Of a DNA stretch of 64,000 bases, positions 39,241 through 46,530 are shown in pieces. The DNA lies in the NCBI GenBank assembly GCA_963663225.1, contig OY760142.1, positions 2,112,001 through 2,176,000 of the forward strand, read 5' to 3'. The notes under the pieces were generated by a model that was not told the DNA's origin, searched no databases, and saw nothing but the letters and a program-made list of their open reading frames with translations. The stretch comes from Nitrospirota bacterium (GTDB lineage Bacteria > Nitrospirota > UBA9217). A program made the position numbers and the translations under genes. Position 1 is the stretch's first letter. Every line of letters begins with the position of its first letter.

Positions 39241-39555
39241 GATAAATCGGTTCTCTCTTTCTTATTGTACCACTGAGCGAGGCGAGAAGGCAGGGAGTTT
39301 TTCCTGTCGCAGCGGCAAGAAGCCGTGACCTCTGTAAGGATTGGTTTTATACCACGCCAGAGCGGGTTTTGTCAATGCAATAATCTGTTTTTGATCCTTG
39401 TATGGTGCACGACCCCACATGGAAGGACTTTATCGAAATAGTTGACATTCGCGGGCAATTCTTTTACTCTGTCACACCGGAAGCGCCGAATGCCTGCTGC
39501 CGTAATTACATCCGGCTTCCCGGTCTCATCGCAAAACGAGATACTTCTTTTCATT

Positions 39556-41478
39556 ATGGAACCTGTATCACAGCGTATTTACAAACAATTGCAAAAACGC
39601 CTGGCCGGACCTCAGGAGCTTTATCTCATTGTATCCATCGAGACGCAAAAGCTTCTGGTCTGCAACGGCGGCTCTGTTGTCGAGCAATACGACTGTTCCA
39701 CATCCCGCTTCGGCAATGGCAACCGGGAAAACTCGCTCAAAACGCCGCTCGGCCTTCATCGGATAAAGGAAAAGTTCGGGGACGACGCGCCTGCGGGCCG
39801 CGTTTTCAGGGACCGTGAGGACACGAGCGAAGACTGGGACCACAGCAAGAACGGGGACAATCTTATCCTGAGCCGCATTCTCAGGCTCGAAGGCCTTGAA
39901 GAAGGGATCAACAAGGGCGCAGGGGTCGATTCCTACGAACGCTACATCTATATCCACGGCACAGGCCGGGAGGACCTGATCGGCACTCCCTTGTCGCACG
40001 GGTGCGTGTGCATGCGGAACCTGGACGTTATCAGACTGTTCGACGCGATTCCGCAAAACACGCTTGTGTATATCGATCCGCCGCCTCTCTTTGTTAACGG
40101 CCATGCATGCAGAAACATTCATTTCACCGGTATTTTCGGCAGCGGCATGAGTGCGCTCGCGCAGTATCTTCGCTTCCAGGGCATCGCGGTCTCCGGCTCC
40201 GACCGGTTCCATACAAGTGAAGACACCGCGTTTATCCGGCGATCTCTCGAAGGGCTGGGATGCATCATCGCCCCTCAGGACGGATCGGGTGTCGGAGCAG
40301 ACACGGATGTTGTCTGTGTTTCGACCGCGATAGAAGAGTCGAATCCTGACATTGCCGTGGCGCGCAAACTGAATGTTCCGATTGTCCACCGCTCCGACCT
40401 GCTTGCTGCGATCATTGCGACGAATAAGACCATTGCCGTGGCAGGCACAAGCGGAAAGTCCACCGTGACGGCAATGATATTCGAATTCCTGACCGCGTGC
40501 GAAAAATCGCCTTCCCTGATAAGCGGCGCCGCCCTGCGCAGGCTTGAGAAAGAAGGACTCATCGGAAACGCCTGGAGCGGAGGTTCCGACCTTCTGGTGG
40601 TTGAGGCGGACGAGAGCGACGGGTCGCTGGTAAAATACCGGCCCGAGGCCGCAGTTCTGCTGAATATTTCAAAGGACCATAAAACAGTCGAGGAGATTAA
40701 AACGCTTTTCGAAACGCTGGCTGCGCAGTCTTCCTGGACAGCGCTGAACGCCGACGATCCGATTCTTGCCTCCCTTTCCGCGGCAAGCCGGTTCGGAAGA
40801 AACGGTTCAGCCTCATGGCGGCCGGACCGGGAGCAGCTTCTGCCGGACTCGGTCAAGCTTGTCAAAGACAGCGTTGAATTTCATCTGCCGCTTCCCGGCG
40901 AGCATAATCTCGAAAATCTGCGCGCCGCGCTGTGCGTCTGCGAACATTTCGGATGCGACCAGAACCTCCTTGCCGGGGCAGTCAAAAATTATGCAGGAGT
41001 CGCCCGGCGTTTCTCCGTGATCAGAACCAGGCAGAACGTATGCGTGGTCGATGACTTCGCGCACAATCCGGCAAAAATTGCCGCCGTTGTTCGCGCGGCG
41101 CGCGGGCTTTCCGACCGCATCATAGCCGTGTACCAGCCGCATGGGTTCGGCCCGACCCGGTTTCTGAAGGACGAATATATTGCCATCTTCCGGACCGCTT
41201 TCCGGCGGGATGAATCGCTCTGTCTTCTGCCGATCTATTATGCCGGCGGCACCGCGCAGAAAAATATTTCATCAGGAGACATTATCGCCGGTCTCGGCCC
41301 TGTGCCGTTTAAAGCGCACGCGGCAAGAGACCGCGATGAGCTGCTGCATAAATTGAAGGCCGACGCGCGTCCGGGGGACTGTGTCCTTGTCATGGGAGCA
41401 CGGGACCCGTCGCTGCCTGTTTTGGTGAACCGGATTGTCGAGATGTTCGGTGGGGAAATAAAGGAAGGCAATCCATGA
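39556..41478 (+). CDS. Fusion: YkuD L,D-transpeptidase/carboxypeptidase domain + MurC/Mpl-type ligase
   Basis: N-terminus TPLG...IYIHGT...SHGCVCM; C-terminus GIFGSGMSALA, GSD, GTSGKST, EADESDG, DDFAHNP, YQPH; single open frame. Confidence 0.88.
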   Translation: MEPVSQRIYKQLQKRLAGPQELYLIVSIETQKLLVCNGGSVVEQYDCSTSRFGNGNRENSLKTPLGLHRIKEKFGDDAPAGRVFRDREDTSEDWDHSKNGDNLILSRILRLEGLEEGINKGAGVDSYERYIYIHGTGREDLIGTPLSHGCVCMRNLDVIRLFDAIPQNTLVYIDPPPLFVNGHACRNIHFTGIFGSGMSALAQYLRFQGIAVSGSDRFHTSEDTAFIRRSLEGLGCIIAPQDGSGVGADTDVVCVSTAIEESNPDIAVARKLNVPIVHRSDLLAAIIATNKTIAVAGTSGKSTVTAMIFEFLTACEKSPSLISGAALRRLEKEGLIGNAWSGGSDLLVVEADESDGSLVKYRPEAAVLLNISKDHKTVEEIKTLFETLAAQSSWTALNADDPILASLSAASRFGRNGSASWRPDREQLLPDSVKLVKDSVEFHLPLPGEHNLENLRAALCVCEHFGCDQNLLAGAVKNYAGVARRFSVIRTRQNVCVVDDFAHNPAKIAAVVRAARGLSDRIIAVYQPHGFGPTRFLKDEYIAIFRTAFRRDESLCLLPIYYAGGTAQKNISSGDIIAGLGPVPFKAHAARDRDELLHKLKADARPGDCVLVMGARDPSLPVLVNRIVEMFGGEIKEGNP

Positions 41479-42302
41479 CACTCACTCTGCAATCAGCCAC
41501 GCAGCTGAACAATGGCGTCTGCATGCCCGTTCTCGGTCTGGGAGTTTATCAGATACGTTCCGGCAGGGAGTCGTACCAGGCAGTATCAACGGCCCTTGAA
41601 ATCGGTTACCGCCATATCGATACCGCGAGCTACTACGGCAATGAAGAAGATATAGGCAAGGCGGTCCGTGACAGCGCTGTCCCTCGGGAAGAAATTTTTG
41701 TCACCACCAAACTCTGGAACAGCGACCACGGTTACGATTCCGCGCTGCGGGCTTTTGATGCATCACTCAGGCGGCTGAATCTGGACTACCTTGATCTTTA
41801 TTTGATCCATTTTCCGGTCACGAGCCTGCGGAAGGAAAGCTGGCGAGCGCTCGAAAAGATACTGAAAAACGGAAGAGCCCGCGCAATCGGGGTGAGCAAT
41901 TACACGGAACGCCACCTGCAGGAACTGCTCAACCAATCGTCGATCGTGCCTGCGGTCAATCAGGTCGAATTCAGCCCGTTTCTGTATCAGCGCGACCTGC
42001 TCGAATTCTGCCGGAGGCAGGGGATACAGCTCACCGCATACGCCCCGCTTACCGAGGGCCACCGGCTGAATGATCCCCGAATAACAGCCATTGCAAAAAA
42101 GCACGGCCGCACAAACGCCCAGATCATGCTTCGGTGGGCTGTCCAGCACGAAGTGGCCGTCATTCCAAAATCCAAACATGCTGACAGAATCGCTGAGAAC
42201 GCAGACGTTTTCAGCTTCGAACTCACCAGCGAAGAGATGGCAATACTCGACCGTCTTCATGACGGCTTCCGCTGCTGTTGGGACCCGACCTCGGTTGCAT
42301 GA
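41475..42302 (+). CDS. Aldo/keto reductase
   Basis: GYRHIDTA..YGNE, FVTTKLWN, DLYLIH, IGVSN, IPKS; ATGA overlap with the upstream gene. Confidence 0.93.
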   Translation: MTLTLQSATQLNNGVCMPVLGLGVYQIRSGRESYQAVSTALEIGYRHIDTASYYGNEEDIGKAVRDSAVPREEIFVTTKLWNSDHGYDSALRAFDASLRRLNLDYLDLYLIHFPVTSLRKESWRALEKILKNGRARAIGVSNYTERHLQELLNQSSIVPAVNQVEFSPFLYQRDLLEFCRRQGIQLTAYAPLTEGHRLNDPRITAIAKKHGRTNAQIMLRWAVQHEVAVIPKSKHADRIAENADVFSFELTSEEMAILDRLHDGFRCCWDPTSVA

Positions 42303-44206: not shown

Positions 44207-44521
44207 ATACTTCCTCCTGTAATTTGAATTTCTCCATAGTAGTATGGTTTCAAGTATAGCACCGGATGGGCAAAGAGGGGCGGAGAGAAATTAAAAAGTG
44301 TTTAACATGTTCATACCGTTTACATATTGCATCAACAACAGACATAGTGCCGTTTTTGCAAAGCACTTGACAACTTCTCGTATATCCATATAATCAACGC
44401 AGCCTCCACGATATTTTGCTCTATCACGCAGTGTGATTTTGTCAAACCAGCATTCATTAATCGGCAAAAGCCGTAAACAGCAGGCTTTTTTATAAAAACG
44501 TCATTGCAACGGGATACCAGC

Positions 44522-45613
44522 ATGAAAGATTCACCAACGCAAAACAAAACGGTTCCAGACCACAAAGACGACGCACAGATGAGAGTGGACCAAATCAACG
44601 GTTTCCAGCGGGAACTTGTTCAACTCGAACAGGAAAACGTATTACATCTGTCCGACGAAGACCGTAGGAAGGTGGAGTCCTACCATGAAGGCCTGTTGCA
44701 GCAGCTTGCAAACCAGTTCGATGTGGACACCACCAAAATGCAGAAACAGATGTCCTGGGGTATGCGTATTATTTCCTTTCTGGGCGCTGCGGCAATTTCG
44801 GCAGCGGTTTTTTTCTTCTTTTACCGGTTCTGGGGGTTGTTTTCCGTTCCAATGCAGGTTTGTGTTCTTGTGGCCGGTCCTATCCTGCTTTCGGTCGGAA
44901 TAGAAGTGGCGGCGCGGAAAGAAAAGACCCTGTACTTCTCGGCCATTATCGGCCTGGTGGCCTTTGCAGCCTTTGTGCTGAATCTGAGCATGCTTGGCCA
45001 AATATTCAACATCACACCCACTCAAAATGCTTTTCTTATTTGGGCTATTTTTGCCTTCATCCTCGCATATACCTATGGTCTGCGCATCTTGCTCGTGGCG
45101 GGTATCATCTCTCTCACCGGTTATCTCTCGGCAACAGTCGGGACCTGGAGCGGGTGCTATTGGCTTGGCTTCGGCGAACGGCCGGAAAATTTTATTGTTG
45201 CGGGGCTTGTCCTGTTTTTTATCTCCTTCATTCCCCATCGATCGTTCCGCGATTTCCCGCCGCTCTATCGATTATTTGGTCTTTTGACTGTTTTTATTGC
45301 CGTCTTTATCCTGGCGAACTGGGGCAGCATCAGTTACCTGGACATTCCGTCGAAATCGGTCGAGCATCTTTATCAGATCATCGGCTTCCTTGCGGCGGGC
45401 CTCGCCATCTGGCTCGGAATCAAGCAGCACTGGCCCGGCGTGACCAACCTCGGCAGCACCTTTTTCGCCATATTTCTGTACACGAAGTTTTATGATTGGT
45501 GGTGGAACTGGATGCCGAAGTATCTCTTCTTTCTCGTGATCGGACTTGTCGCGCTCCTGTTGCTTCTGGTTCTCAAGCGGCTCCGGGCAAGAACCCGTGA
45601 GGTGCTGCCATGA
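44522..45613 (+). CDS. DUF2157-like multi-pass membrane protein
   Basis: About 10 hydrophobic segments; LGQIFNI motif; ATGA-coupled to the next gene. Confidence 0.7.
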   Translation: MKDSPTQNKTVPDHKDDAQMRVDQINGFQRELVQLEQENVLHLSDEDRRKVESYHEGLLQQLANQFDVDTTKMQKQMSWGMRIISFLGAAAISAAVFFFFYRFWGLFSVPMQVCVLVAGPILLSVGIEVAARKEKTLYFSAIIGLVAFAAFVLNLSMLGQIFNITPTQNAFLIWAIFAFILAYTYGLRILLVAGIISLTGYLSATVGTWSGCYWLGFGERPENFIVAGLVLFFISFIPHRSFRDFPPLYRLFGLLTVFIAVFILANWGSISYLDIPSKSVEHLYQIIGFLAAGLAIWLGIKQHWPGVTNLGSTFFAIFLYTKFYDWWWNWMPKYLFFLVIGLVALLLLLVLKRLRARTREVLP

Positions 45614-46530
45614 AACGATATGGTCTTATAACGGCGATACTCCTGCTTGCGGCGGTCAACGCCCTGATACTTGCGAATGCAGCATACAACCGGTCTTCGG
45701 AATTTGAATCGGAAGTGAGTCTGACGGAGCGGGAACTCCCGGTCCATTATTCATGGAGTCCTTCCAGGAAGGAAAATACGGGGCTCTCACTGCGGCTCAA
45801 TTGGCAGGTGTATGATGCGGGGATGACTGCAAAAGGCGAACGATACCGCACACATCACATTTCCTGGTTCGACCAAGCCAAACTTGAGGCCCTTGGCTTC
45901 AATTGCTCGCGGCTGCTCTCCAGCGAAAACGCCGAGCTGTACTACAAAAAAATGCTTCCGCGAAAAACGTTCGCAGTTCTCGAATACGAGGGAAAAACCT
46001 GGCAGGAATGGCAGAATGATCATGAACAGCGCATAGAGGAAATGGAAGAAGATGTGGCGAGAGGTGAAGAAACCAAGAAAAATCTGGAGGATTTTAAAAA
46101 AGAATACCAGAGCTCGCTTATAGCAAAGTCGCGGCTGTTTGTTGTGGACGTGGGAAACAACGCTTTCCTGCTGCGTCGGAAATATCCCGATCGATCGCGC
46201 TTTATCATCACGCCTGCCAAAGTGAGTCTTTCTTATCAGCTGAAAAATACGGACGGCGCCAAACCCGCAATCGATCGTCTGAACGGAGTGATCAATGCAA
46301 TACTGATCGAGGAAATCAATGTTCCTCTCGAAAAGCGGGGAGATTTGGATCGGATTCTTACTGAGAAAAAAGGGAAGGAACATGGTACTTTTACGCCGTA
46401 CCATTATTACAGCCAGCAACAACCGCCTGCGTATATTGTTACACTCCGGTATGGGAAAAAATATGAACCGTGGATTGAGGATGTCCAGAAGATCGCGGCG
46501 CAAAGAAGTACTACGACAGAAGGGAAATAA
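45610..46530 (+). CDS. DUF4824-like membrane-anchored protein
   Basis: N-terminal anchor, LTEREL, ENTGLSLRL.W, SRLF.VD.G, G...EPWI. Confidence 0.65.
   Translation: MKRYGLITAILLLAAVNALILANAAYNRSSEFESEVSLTERELPVHYSWSPSRKENTGLSLRLNWQVYDAGMTAKGERYRTHHISWFDQAKLEALGFNCSRLLSSENAELYYKKMLPRKTFAVLEYEGKTWQEWQNDHEQRIEEMEEDVARGEETKKNLEDFKKEYQSSLIAKSRLFVVDVGNNAFLLRRKYPDRSRFIITPAKVSLSYQLKNTDGAKPAIDRLNGVINAILIEEINVPLEKRGDLDRILTEKKGKEHGTFTPYHYYSQQQPPAYIVTLRYGKKYEPWIEDVQKIAAQRSTTTEGK

What the first reader, a model, noticed from the sequence alone, without database searches (positions are those of the whole stretch)
39556..41478. ElsL-like L,D-peptidase fused to a MurC/Mpl ligase: candidate single-chain peptidoglycan-recycling enzyme
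Seen: one 640-aa frame with an N-terminal YkuD domain (IYIHGT...SHGCVCM, catalytic His/Cys intact, no signal peptide) joined by DPPPL to a complete Mur ligase (GxxGSGMS, GTSGKST, EADESD, DDFAHNP). It lies outside any dcw cluster. Known: Acinetobacter ElsL is a cytoplasmic YkuD-family L,D-carboxypeptidase that trims tetrapeptides for recycling, and Mpl religates tripeptide to UDP-MurNAc. By eye the N-domain carries ElsL-type segments (TPLG.H....G, ILSRIL.L.GLE.G.N.G, D...RYIYIHG). Inference: a fusion coupling stem-peptide trimming to religation, replacing LdcA + Mpl. I do not know of a characterised protein with this architecture.
Basis: partly seen in the sequence, partly recalled or inferred. 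Interest (0 to 1): 0.8.

Follow-up and report, generated by a model that had tools for sequence, protein, structure and literature searches.

The report
Cell-wall peptide trimmer fused to ligase
One gene joins an enzyme that probably trims used cell-wall peptides to an enzyme that probably re-attaches them to the wall precursor, which suggests a second, so far unstudied route for bacteria to recycle their cell wall.

Summary
Window 39556-41478 (+) is one uninterrupted 640-codon frame. It encodes a YkuD domain without a signal peptide, whose catalytic His134 and Cys150 are intact, joined by a short ordered linker to a complete three-domain Mur ligase.

The fusion is not an assembly artefact. 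All 120 listed homologues share the architecture, and 146 species genomes encode a relative.

The ligase is neither canonical MurC nor Mpl. It sits in a third MurC-family clade that has lost MurC's two L-alanine-binding arginines and lacks the Mpl signature insertion.

In Fibrobacterota the same two parts are separate, overlapping neighbour genes in 25 of 30 loci examined. The fused forms make one clade nested among these split forms.

The complete host genome keeps a normal dcw murC but shows no Mpl and no LdcA. It has AmpG-, NagZ- and AmpD-like genes.

Most likely, at about 0.6, this is a bifunctional stem-peptide recycling enzyme: an L,D-carboxypeptidase plus a peptide ligase. No activity was tested, and I found no paper on it.

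The parts
39556..41478 (+). Whole gene: 640 codons plus a TGA stop, encoding the YkuD-Mur ligase fusion protein
   Evidence: no internal stop; all 120 listed homologues carry the same four Pfam domains.
39622..40074 (+). YkuD (L,D-transpeptidase/carboxypeptidase fold) domain, residues 23-173, ElsL-like
   Evidence: PF03734, 72 bits. NF040925 (ElsL) 137.5 bits, below its cut-off of 270; the periplasmic Ldt models score only 18-22 bits.
39955..39957 (+). Codon of catalytic His134
   Evidence: Invariant in 123 of 123 fused and 111 of 111 stand-alone homologues.
40003..40005 (+). Codon of catalytic Cys150, the position of the YkuD nucleophile (ElsL Cys138 per PMC8649774)
   Evidence: Cys in 123 of 123 fused and 110 of 111 stand-alone homologues.
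40075..40113 (+). Linker, residues 174-186. It corresponds to the stop/start overlap of the two genes in the split forms.
   Evidence: the split ElsL-like genes end at query residue 173-174, and the ligase genes start at 174-181, mostly 178; the model places short strands at 178-180 and 183-185, and block pLDDT is 95-97.
40114..40422 (+). Mur ligase N-terminal (UDP-sugar-binding) domain, residues 187-289
   Evidence: PF01225, 48 bits; the glycine-rich loop and the Ser-Asp that follows are kept, as in MurC and Mpl.
40438..40941 (+). Mur ligase middle (ATP-binding) domain, residues 295-462. Holds the P-loop (297-303), the acidic Mg site (350-355) and His375.
   Evidence: PF08245, 53.7 bits; the P-loop is conserved but has Ser at 299 and 302, where MurC and Mpl have His and Thr.
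41005..41403 (+). Mur ligase C-terminal (incoming-substrate) domain, residues 484-616
   Evidence: PF02875, 56.1 bits.
41056..41154 (+). Positions that bind L-alanine in H. influenzae MurC: Phe501 (Tyr346), His503 (His348), His529 (His376), Gly530 (Arg377), Pro533 (Arg380)
   Evidence: alignment to 1gqq/1p3d, numbering checked against PMC3060825 section 17; the same replacements hold across the third clade. One search gives the codons.

Best explanation
The gene encodes a cytoplasmic, bifunctional peptidoglycan stem-peptide recycling enzyme.

The proposed mechanism has two steps:
1. The N-terminal YkuD domain acts as an L,D-carboxypeptidase. It uses Cys150 and His134 to remove the terminal D-alanine from imported tetrapeptide (L-Ala-gamma-D-Glu-mDAP-D-Ala), either free or still on a sugar.
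2. The C-terminal ligase is a member of a third MurC-family clade. It uses ATP to attach the resulting tripeptide to UDP-MurNAc, giving UDP-MurNAc-tripeptide, which MurF can extend.

This does the job that LdcA (or ElsL) and Mpl do in Proteobacteria. In that way it keeps non-crosslinkable tetrapeptide out of new precursors.

Shown here: the domain composition, the intact catalytic residues, the clade position, the gene content of the genome, and the conserved adjacency and fusion.

Inferred: both substrate specificities, the order of the two steps, and any channelling between the two sites.
For: 1. Conserved partnership. In Fibrobacterota 73 of 151 genomes have the ElsL-like protein. Of the best 30 loci, 25 have it as a 173-230 aa gene directly upstream of a ligase gene of this clade. 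The two are on the same strand and their frames overlap. In 23 of the 25 the ligase frame is complete (456-474 aa); in two it is cut by the contig end. Identity is 50-62% to query residues from about 178 onward. Four further loci are fused and 1 is cut by a contig end.

2. Direction of change. Fused forms from three phyla make one clade (SH-aLRT 99, 20 rows) nested among the split forms. A second fused protein, P0124, lies elsewhere, giving 2 changes of state.

3. In Nitrospirota the ElsL-like domain occurs only inside the fusion. It is found in 56 of 301 genomes, all in the window's own family, and in 0 of 237 genomes of other families.

4. The ligase is not the housekeeping MurC. The genome has a canonical dcw murC at 564 bits. 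So do the three other fusion genomes checked.

5. The ligase keeps the UDP-sugar and ATP motifs but has Gly and Pro at MurC's L-Ala-binding Arg377 and Arg380 (residues named in PMC3060825 section 17).

6. Gene content. The complete genome (1 contig, 99% complete) has no Mpl over the cut-off, no Peptidase_S66 and only this one YkuD domain. It does have an AmpG-like permease (193 bits), a GH3/NagZ-like gene (265 bits) and an AmpD-sized Amidase_2 gene (58.6 bits).

7. Complementary distribution with Mpl:
- Nitrospirota: Mpl in 6 of 301 genomes, none of them among the 56 with the fusion.
- Fibrobacterota: Mpl in 1 of 151 genomes, not among the 73 with the pair.
- Desulfobacterota: Mpl-like in 99 of 201 genomes, but in none of the 5 that carry the fusion.

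8. An analogous pairing occurs in the same phylum. All 6 Nitrospirota genomes with Mpl also have LdcA. In 5 of these the two lie on the same contig within about 1.3 kb, and in 3 the matched parts are 84 bases apart.

9. ElsL is a cytoplasmic YkuD L,D-carboxypeptidase that feeds Mpl (PMC8649774, passages read).
Against: No enzymatic activity was tested for either domain.

By HMM the ligase is closest to MurC (283 bits) and far from Mpl (96 bits). Its fold is also nearest MurC: TM 0.86 against 0.71 for Mpl. An L-alanine or other single-amino-acid ligase therefore cannot be excluded from sequence alone.

The N-domain scores only half the ElsL cut-off.

The nearest stand-alone relatives found in Desulfobacterota (46-48% identity) start with signal-peptide-like segments, so close sequence similarity does not in itself mean a cytoplasmic carboxypeptidase.

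More distant stand-alone ligases of the clade occur in other Nitrospirota families with no ElsL-like or LdcA gene. Their neighbours are not conserved across 12 loci; of 10 direct neighbours scanned with Pfam, the only wall-related hits were SPOR domains, in 2.

The AmpG-like match is below its curated cut-off, and AnmK was not found.

The genomes counted are related to one another, so the distribution counts overstate independence.
Confidence: 0.6

Rival explanations
1. Same two activities in the reverse order. The ligase attaches tetrapeptide (or accepts tri-, tetra- and pentapeptides, as E. coli Mpl does) to UDP-MurNAc. The YkuD domain then trims UDP-MurNAc-tetrapeptide to the tripeptide form, acting as a proof-reader on the ligase product.
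For: Mpl can attach tetra- and pentapeptides, though less efficiently (PMC3060825, section 17). An elsL mutant accumulates UDP-MurNAc-tetrapeptide (PMC8649774). In the model the YkuD domain sits against the N-terminal, UDP-sugar-binding end of the ligase through a short ordered linker.
Against: Nothing in the sequence fixes the order. In the split forms the YkuD gene comes first, which says little about reaction order.
Confidence: 0.15
2. The ligase is a second MurC isozyme that adds L-alanine (or glycine or L-serine) to UDP-MurNAc. The YkuD domain has a separate role, such as editing or amino-acid exchange on cytoplasmic precursors. In that case the fusion does not re-use peptides.
For: The best HMM and fold matches are to MurC. 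Some stand-alone clade members score above the murC cut-off: P0165 at 352 bits and P0202 at 343.6 bits. YkuD enzymes can catalyse exchange reactions (my own knowledge, not from a call).
Against: A canonical MurC is present in every fusion genome checked, 4 of 4. In the genome table, every Nitrospirota genome with a stand-alone clade member (best E 1e-73 or lower, 52 by my reading of that table) shows two or more matches; only some of these second matches are listed individually as canonical MurC. MurC Arg377 and Arg380 are replaced across the clade. The constant pairing with an L,D-carboxypeptidase-type domain, whose product is the tripeptide, has no obvious reason under this reading.
Confidence: 0.15
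3. The protein salvages foreign peptidoglycan fragments (necromass) as a nutrient or building block, rather than recycling the cell's own wall. Or it acts on a related non-peptidoglycan peptide.
For: The runs that list small shares of the gene's words are labelled sludge, digester, biofilm and sediment metagenomes. No conserved operon ties the gene to the cell's own wall turnover.
Against: The chemistry would be the same as in the main reading. The UDP-sugar-binding motifs are conserved. AmpG-, NagZ- and AmpD-like genes fit ordinary recycling.
Confidence: 0.07

Closest known systems
ElsL of Acinetobacter baumannii (cytoplasmic YkuD-family L,D-carboxypeptidase; NCBIfam NF040925; PMC8649774)
   Same: YkuD fold and no signal peptide. 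The catalytic Cys/His are kept. ElsL is by far the best named match for the N-domain: 137.5 bits against 18-22 bits for periplasmic Ldt models. It has the same proposed reaction, tetrapeptide to tripeptide.
   Different: The score is half the curated cut-off of 270. ElsL is a stand-alone protein that works with a separate, canonical Mpl. Here the domain is fused, or adjacent, to a non-Mpl ligase. The published ortholog survey dropped all hits longer than 200 aa (Methods passage), so fused forms could not appear in it. Its Data Set S3 could not be opened.
LdcA + Mpl of E. coli (Peptidase_S66 PF02016; mpl TIGR01081)
   Same: The same proposed pair of steps and the same product. In 5 of 6 Nitrospirota genomes that have them, mpl and ldcA lie on one contig within about 1.3 kb, which mirrors the adjacency and fusion seen here.
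   Different: Neither protein family is the same. The peptidase here is a cysteine YkuD fold, not a serine S66 enzyme. The ligase is outside the Mpl clade and lacks the Mpl motif (S/T)AFFDKRSK (PMC3060825 section 12).
MurC, UDP-N-acetylmuramate--L-alanine ligase (TIGR01082; PDB 1p3d, 2f00)
   Same: Three-domain architecture. Nearest HMM (283 bits) and nearest fold (TM 0.86, 27% identity). The UDP-sugar and ATP motifs are kept.
   Different: Below the curated cut-off of 335.1. A separate clade (SH-aLRT 97). Arg377 becomes Gly and Arg380 becomes Pro. The P-loop and C-terminal motifs are altered, and there is a 4-residue insertion after the substrate loop. It lies outside the dcw cluster, and a canonical MurC coexists with it.
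Other natural Mur-ligase fusions: MurC-Ddl (NF011171) and MurE-MurF (NF008896)
   Same: They show that consecutive steps of precursor synthesis do get fused into one chain. Both models gave partial matches through their ligase parts.
   Different: Those join two ATP-dependent synthetic steps. This one joins a hydrolase of the recycling branch to a ligase. I found no description of such an architecture.

Membership tests
YkuD / L,D-transpeptidase catalytic domain (PF03734) | Profile match above Pfam's gathering score | tested here: met
   72 bits against 23.4, residues 23-173, covering profile positions 3-146 of 146.
YkuD / L,D-transpeptidase catalytic domain (PF03734) | Catalytic His and Cys of the active-site motif | tested here: met
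   His134 and Cys150 align with the motif of solved YkuD proteins. They are invariant in 123 of 123 fused homologues.
ElsL (NF040925) | Score at or above the curated cut-off (270 bits) | tested here: not met
   137.5 bits, E 3.3e-40, covering profile positions 8-159 of 164.
ElsL (NF040925) | Cytoplasmic: no signal peptide, transmembrane helix or PG-binding domain | tested here: met
   No hydrophobic N-terminal stretch. No other Pfam domain besides the ATP-dependent ligase. No dedicated signal-peptide predictor was available.
ElsL (NF040925) | Stand-alone protein of 105-200 aa (the filter used in the published ortholog survey) | tested here: not met
   The protein is a 640 aa fusion. The filter is described in the Methods of PMC8649774.
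ElsL (NF040925) | Removes D-Ala from tetrapeptide but not from pentapeptide | not testable with these tools
   This is a biochemical assay.
MurC (TIGR01082) | Score at or above the curated cut-off (335.1 bits) | tested here: not met
   283.4 bits. The genome's dcw murC scores 564.1 bits.
MurC (TIGR01082) | L-alanine-binding residues His376, Arg377, Arg380, Tyr346 and His348 (H. influenzae numbering) | tested here: not met
   His376 and His348 are kept and Tyr346 becomes Phe. Arg377 becomes Gly530 and Arg380 becomes Pro533.
MurC (TIGR01082) | Falls inside the canonical MurC clade | tested here: not met
   The 17 canonical MurC rows form their own clade (support 92). The fusion lies in a separate clade of 66 rows (support 97) (quick tree).
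Mpl (TIGR01081) | Score at or above the curated cut-off (388.7 bits) | tested here: not met
   95.7 bits, in two stretches.
Mpl (TIGR01081) | Mpl-specific motif (S/T)AFFDKRSK after the acidic Mg site | tested here: not met
   The insertion is present in the 15 Mpl rows and absent from all fused, stand-alone and MurC rows. The motif is taken from PMC3060825 section 12.
Mpl (TIGR01081) | Falls inside the Mpl clade | tested here: not met
   The Mpl clade has support 100 without the fusions. Forcing fusions and Mpl together costs 325.8 log-likelihood units, p-AU 7e-113. That test is easy to pass, because the fusions nest among the stand-alone clade members.
Mpl (TIGR01081) | Ligates tripeptide to UDP-MurNAc | not testable with these tools
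   This is a biochemical assay. It is the function I propose by analogy, not by membership.
Mur ligase superfamily | Three Pfam domains plus the P-loop, the acidic Mg site and a conserved His | tested here: met
   PF01225, PF08245 and PF02875 are all above cut-off. The motifs are conserved across the clade.

The most novel reading that the evidence does not exclude
The whole third MurC-family clade may be a second family of murein peptide ligases. It would have arisen from a MurC-like ancestor independently of Mpl and would serve cell-wall peptide recycling in many non-proteobacterial lineages. The clade covers at least 129 stand-alone clusters at 50% identity in one search, plus the fused and split forms. 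The fusion in this window would then be the link that reveals the clade's function. Many genes now named 'UDP-N-acetylmuramate--L-alanine ligase' or 'L,D-transpeptidase family protein' would be mis-named.
Probability: 0.3. Interest if true: 0.75.

Novelty: new variant of a known kind. Interest (0 to 1): 0.62.

Why it matters
Peptide recycling of the cell wall is understood almost only from Proteobacteria, through AmpG, AmpD, LdcA or ElsL, and Mpl. The genomes examined here mostly showed no Mpl match: 295 of 301 Nitrospirota, 150 of 151 Fibrobacterota, and all 5 fusion-bearing Desulfobacterota.

A natural fusion, together with conserved overlapping gene pairs, links an L,D-carboxypeptidase-type domain to an uncharacterised MurC-like clade. 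This yields a concrete, testable candidate for the missing ligase. It also gives a compact single-chain system for studying how cells keep tetrapeptide out of new precursors.

It bears on annotation as well. These proteins are currently named either as MurC or as L,D-transpeptidases. Neither name fits the ligase's family scores and substrate residues or the cytoplasmic location inferred for the YkuD domain.

Tried and rejected
**Complex prediction.** I submitted the split pair from locus L159 (ligase with alignment A3, ElsL-like protein with alignment A2). The result was a score of 0.01, 'no answer', and no controls were run. This is no evidence either way.

**Expression.** No RNA holder is listed for the gene. 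This is no evidence on expression. Run X23 (raw reads) laid nothing.

**Gene neighbourhood of the fusion.**
- The window's neighbours (typA upstream on the other strand, the aldo/keto reductase downstream) recur only in the nearest relatives. The reductase is found in 3 of 80 loci and typA in 1 of 80.
- The commonest flanking gene cluster occurs in 9 of 80 loci, and it is not wall-related by eye.

**Neighbourhood of the more distant stand-alone ligases in 12 Nitrospirota loci.**
- No cluster is shared by more than 3 loci.
- Pfam on 10 direct neighbours gave SPOR domains in 2, and otherwise unrelated families or nothing.

**Possible Mpl fusions in Desulfobacterota.** These were suggested by long open frames of 712-938 aa. 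I rejected them: the extra length is a spurious upstream open frame in G+C-rich DNA, and the Mpl proper starts at its usual N-terminus.

**Other checks that added little.**
- The promoter/terminator scan was at chance level.
- The ESM Atlas returned only generic 'MurC family' clusters.
- A sequence search of the N-domain against solved structures gave only weak matches to periplasmic YkuD proteins (27 bits at best). No ElsL-type structure turned up.

**Tools and files not available.** Supplementary files, notably Data Set S3 of PMC8649774 (the ElsL ortholog list), could not be seen. They might list relatives in these phyla.

**Rows dropped from analyses.**
- Tree: I used 37 of 129 stand-alone representatives (the first 14, then every fifth) and 17 fused rows chosen for spread.
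- I used 111 of the 120 listed stand-alone N-domain homologues (length 150-240 aa).
- split loci L165, L178 and L182 were left out because their ligase is missing or cut by the contig end.
- All trees are 'quick' LG+G4 searches with SH-aLRT support only.
Full report
**The observation**

Window 39442..41478 (+) is one open frame. From the ATG at 39556 it encodes 640 residues with no internal stop.

Pfam finds four domains, all above their gathering scores:
- YkuD, residues 23-173, 72 bits.
- Mur ligase N domain, residues 187-289.
- Mur ligase middle domain, residues 295-462.
- Mur ligase C domain, residues 484-616.

NCBIfam ranks murC first for the ligase part at 283.4 bits, below its cut-off of 335.1. 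Mpl scores only 95.7 against 388.7. For the N-domain it ranks the cytoplasmic L,D-carboxypeptidase ElsL first at 137.5 bits, below its cut-off of 270. Periplasmic L,D-transpeptidase models reach only 18-22 bits.

The catalytic His134 and Cys150 are present. The N-terminus has no hydrophobic stretch.

An AlphaFold2 model built on 81 sequences is confident throughout, with mean pLDDT 93.1 and pTM 0.91. The linker, residues 174-186, is modelled as ordered short strands rather than a floppy tether.

**Is the fusion real?**

All 120 listed homologues (77-92% identical, 620-680 aa) carry the same four domains. A scan of one genome per species found 146 genomes that encode a relative. The best 80 are 64-92% identical. 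Nearly all match the query over almost its full length; a few are cut by a contig end (for example L038, from residue 103). Their titles name Nitrospirota, Syntrophorhabdus and its relatives (including the cultured S. aromaticivorans UI), and one Fibrobacteres bin.

Contigs from runs X1 and X3 match the gene without any difference across the junction. Both come from one sample, possibly the window's own source. A 13-kb contig from a different study (X5) spans the gene with substitutions only. Its two listed indels lie just upstream of the ATG. That also favours the ATG over the upstream TTG as the start.

**What the ligase is**

I built a tree of 99 rows, rooted with the genome's MurD. The rows were:
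- 17 fused ligase parts.
- 37 of 129 stand-alone representatives.
- 12 stand-alone Nitrospirota ligases.
- 17 canonical MurC.
- 15 Mpl.

The tree gives three groups: Mpl (support 100), canonical MurC (92), and a third clade (97) that holds all fused and stand-alone relatives. This is a quick search with SH-aLRT support only.

Forcing the fusions together with Mpl is rejected, p-AU 7e-113. That test is easy to pass, because the fusions nest among the stand-alone members.

Column by column, the third clade keeps the UDP-sugar loop, the P-loop lysine, the acidic Mg site and the conserved histidines. It has clade-wide differences:
- Ser for His and Ser for Thr in the P-loop (residues 299 and 302).
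- A changed motif around Phe501-His503.
- A changed loop at 527-535.
- A 4-residue insertion after that loop.
- Changed C-terminal motifs.

The paper on the Mpl structure names the MurC residues that hold the incoming L-alanine: His376, Arg377, Arg380, Tyr346 and His348 (PMC3060825, section 17, read). In the HMMER alignment to H. influenzae MurC these correspond to His529, Gly530, Pro533, Phe501 and His503. Both arginines are therefore gone.

The Mpl-only motif (S/T)AFFDKRSK (same paper, section 12) is absent.

By fold, the ligase part is nearest MurC (TM 0.86, 27% identity). Mpl follows at TM 0.71.

**The conserved partnership**

This is the strongest new evidence.

Searching Fibrobacterota with the N-domain alone found it in 73 of 151 genomes. 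I examined the 30 best loci:
- 25 have a stand-alone ElsL-like gene of 173-230 aa directly upstream of a third-clade ligase gene, on the same strand, with the two frames overlapping. The ligase frame is 456-474 aa where complete and is cut by the contig end in two loci. It aligns from about query residue 178 at 50-62% identity.
- 4 loci are fused.
- 1 ends at the contig edge.

In a tree of these ligases, all fused forms from the three phyla make one clade (support 99, 20 rows). That clade is nested within the split forms when rooted on MurC. A second fused protein, P0124, lies apart next to a stand-alone one. The fused/split label therefore needs 2 changes.

The simplest history is an old two-gene operon that was fused at least once. 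Since the fused genes are 64-80% identical across phyla, the fusion then spread between phyla. The Nitrospirota copies nest among Syntrophorhabdus-like ones. That last point was not tested further.

In Nitrospirota the ElsL-like domain is found only in the window's own family, and always inside the fused frame. It occurs in 56 of 301 genomes, and in 0 of the 237 genomes of other families.

The catalytic His and Cys are invariant in 123 of 123 fused proteins. They are present in 111 of 111 (His) and 110 of 111 (Cys) stand-alone homologues of 150-240 aa.

**Gene content**

The window's genome is one 3.26-Mb contig, 99% complete. It has:
- A canonical murC in the dcw cluster, 564 bits, about 1.04 Mb away.
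- No Mpl above the cut-off; the best Mpl score, 224 bits, is the canonical MurC itself.
- No Peptidase_S66/LdcA.
- No YkuD domain other than this one.
- An AmpG-like permease, 193 bits, below the cut-off of 350.
- A GH3/NagZ-like gene, 265 bits.
- A 176-codon Amidase_2/AmpD-like frame, 58.6 bits.
- No AnmK.

The steps that would deliver a free stem peptide to the cytoplasm are therefore plausibly present. The two known enzymes for the next steps were not found, and the fusion could supply both.

**Distribution against Mpl and LdcA**

- Nitrospirota: Mpl was found in 6 of 301 genomes, none of them fusion-bearing. All 6 also have LdcA. In 5 of them the two genes share a contig within about 1.3 kb, and in three the matched parts are 84 bases apart. 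LdcA was found in 39 of 301 genomes and in none of the 63 genomes of the window's family.
- Desulfobacterota: an Mpl-like gene was found in 99 of 201 genomes. It was not found in any of the 5 with the fusion, one of which (G455) is broken into three frames.
- Fibrobacterota: Mpl was found in 1 of 151 genomes, and that genome lacks the pair.

These genomes are related to each other, so the counts are suggestive only.

**Evidence against the recycling reading**

- No activity was measured.
- The ligase is MurC-like by every similarity measure.
- Two stand-alone clade members even pass the murC cut-off.
- More distant stand-alone members in other Nitrospirota families have no ElsL-like or LdcA partner and no conserved neighbours.
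- The two stand-alone N-domain relatives found in Desulfobacterota begin with signal-peptide-like segments.

**Comparison with what is known**

ElsL of A. baumannii is a cytoplasmic YkuD-family L,D-carboxypeptidase. Its loss lets Mpl re-use tetrapeptide and build UDP-MurNAc-tetrapeptide (PMC8649774; passages read). That paper's ortholog survey excluded hits longer than 200 aa, so fusions could not be seen in it.

I ran four full-text searches:
- ElsL / Mpl / peptidoglycan recycling.
- YkuD + Mur ligase + fusion.
- Murein peptide ligase and MurC paralogue terms.
- YkuD + MurC.

None found a paper describing a YkuD-Mur ligase fusion or this ligase clade. I judged this from listings, and from passages in the two papers I opened.

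Databases name these proteins 'L,D-transpeptidase family protein' or 'UDP-N-acetylmuramate--alanine ligase'.

**Verdict**

One correction is needed: the ligase is a member of a third MurC-family clade, not MurC or Mpl. One addition matters: the two parts are a conserved gene pair elsewhere.

It is a new variant of a known kind of system. The bolder reading, that the whole clade is a second family of murein peptide ligases, is open at about 0.3.

Noticed in passing
window 41475-42302 (+): An aldo/keto reductase gene (PF00248, 200 bits) starts with an ATG that overlaps the fusion's TGA stop by four bases. This arrangement recurs only in the closest relatives (L008, L038), so it is probably a local accident rather than a functional operon.
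   Followed up: partly
window 39432-39555: In a roughly 94%-identical contig from another study, the stretch between the upstream TTG and the ATG carries many more substitutions than the gene does. It also holds both listed indels, at 39545 and 39550. It behaves as non-coding leader.
   Followed up: partly
G171:C27:267209-269022, G108:C43:208190-210003, G231:C25:46371-48184 (other Nitrospirota families): Canonical mpl and ldcA lie next to each other on the same strand, with 84 bases between the matched parts. In G268 and G276 they are within about 1.3 kb.
   Followed up: partly
L124-L130 (Desulfobacterota mpl loci): In 6 of the 7 loci, a frame of about 450-530 aa that looks like a beta-lactamase-type serine hydrolase lies directly upstream of mpl; L126 shows no such frame. 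I read this by eye from the translations and did not scan it against Pfam. It could be another peptide-trimming partner of Mpl.
   Followed up: no
L153 (G455:C19:306000-316000): One Desulfobacterota genome carries the fusion broken into three overlapping frames. It is either a pseudogene or an assembly error.
   Followed up: no
L151:6286-6936 (+), L152:2021-2626 (-): Two Desulfobacterota genomes have stand-alone YkuD proteins 46-48% identical to the N-domain that begin with signal-peptide-like hydrophobic segments. The same sub-family therefore seems to have secreted members.
   Followed up: no
L089:7388-8866 (-), L099:7755-8612 (-): A protein with a SPOR domain (binds septal peptidoglycan) lies next to the stand-alone third-clade ligase in two Nitrospirota loci. 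In L089 it also carries a response-regulator receiver domain.
   Followed up: no
window 44504-46530 (+): A DUF2157 membrane protein gene and a DUF4824 gene (214 bits) overlap by four bases. Their function is unknown.
   Followed up: no
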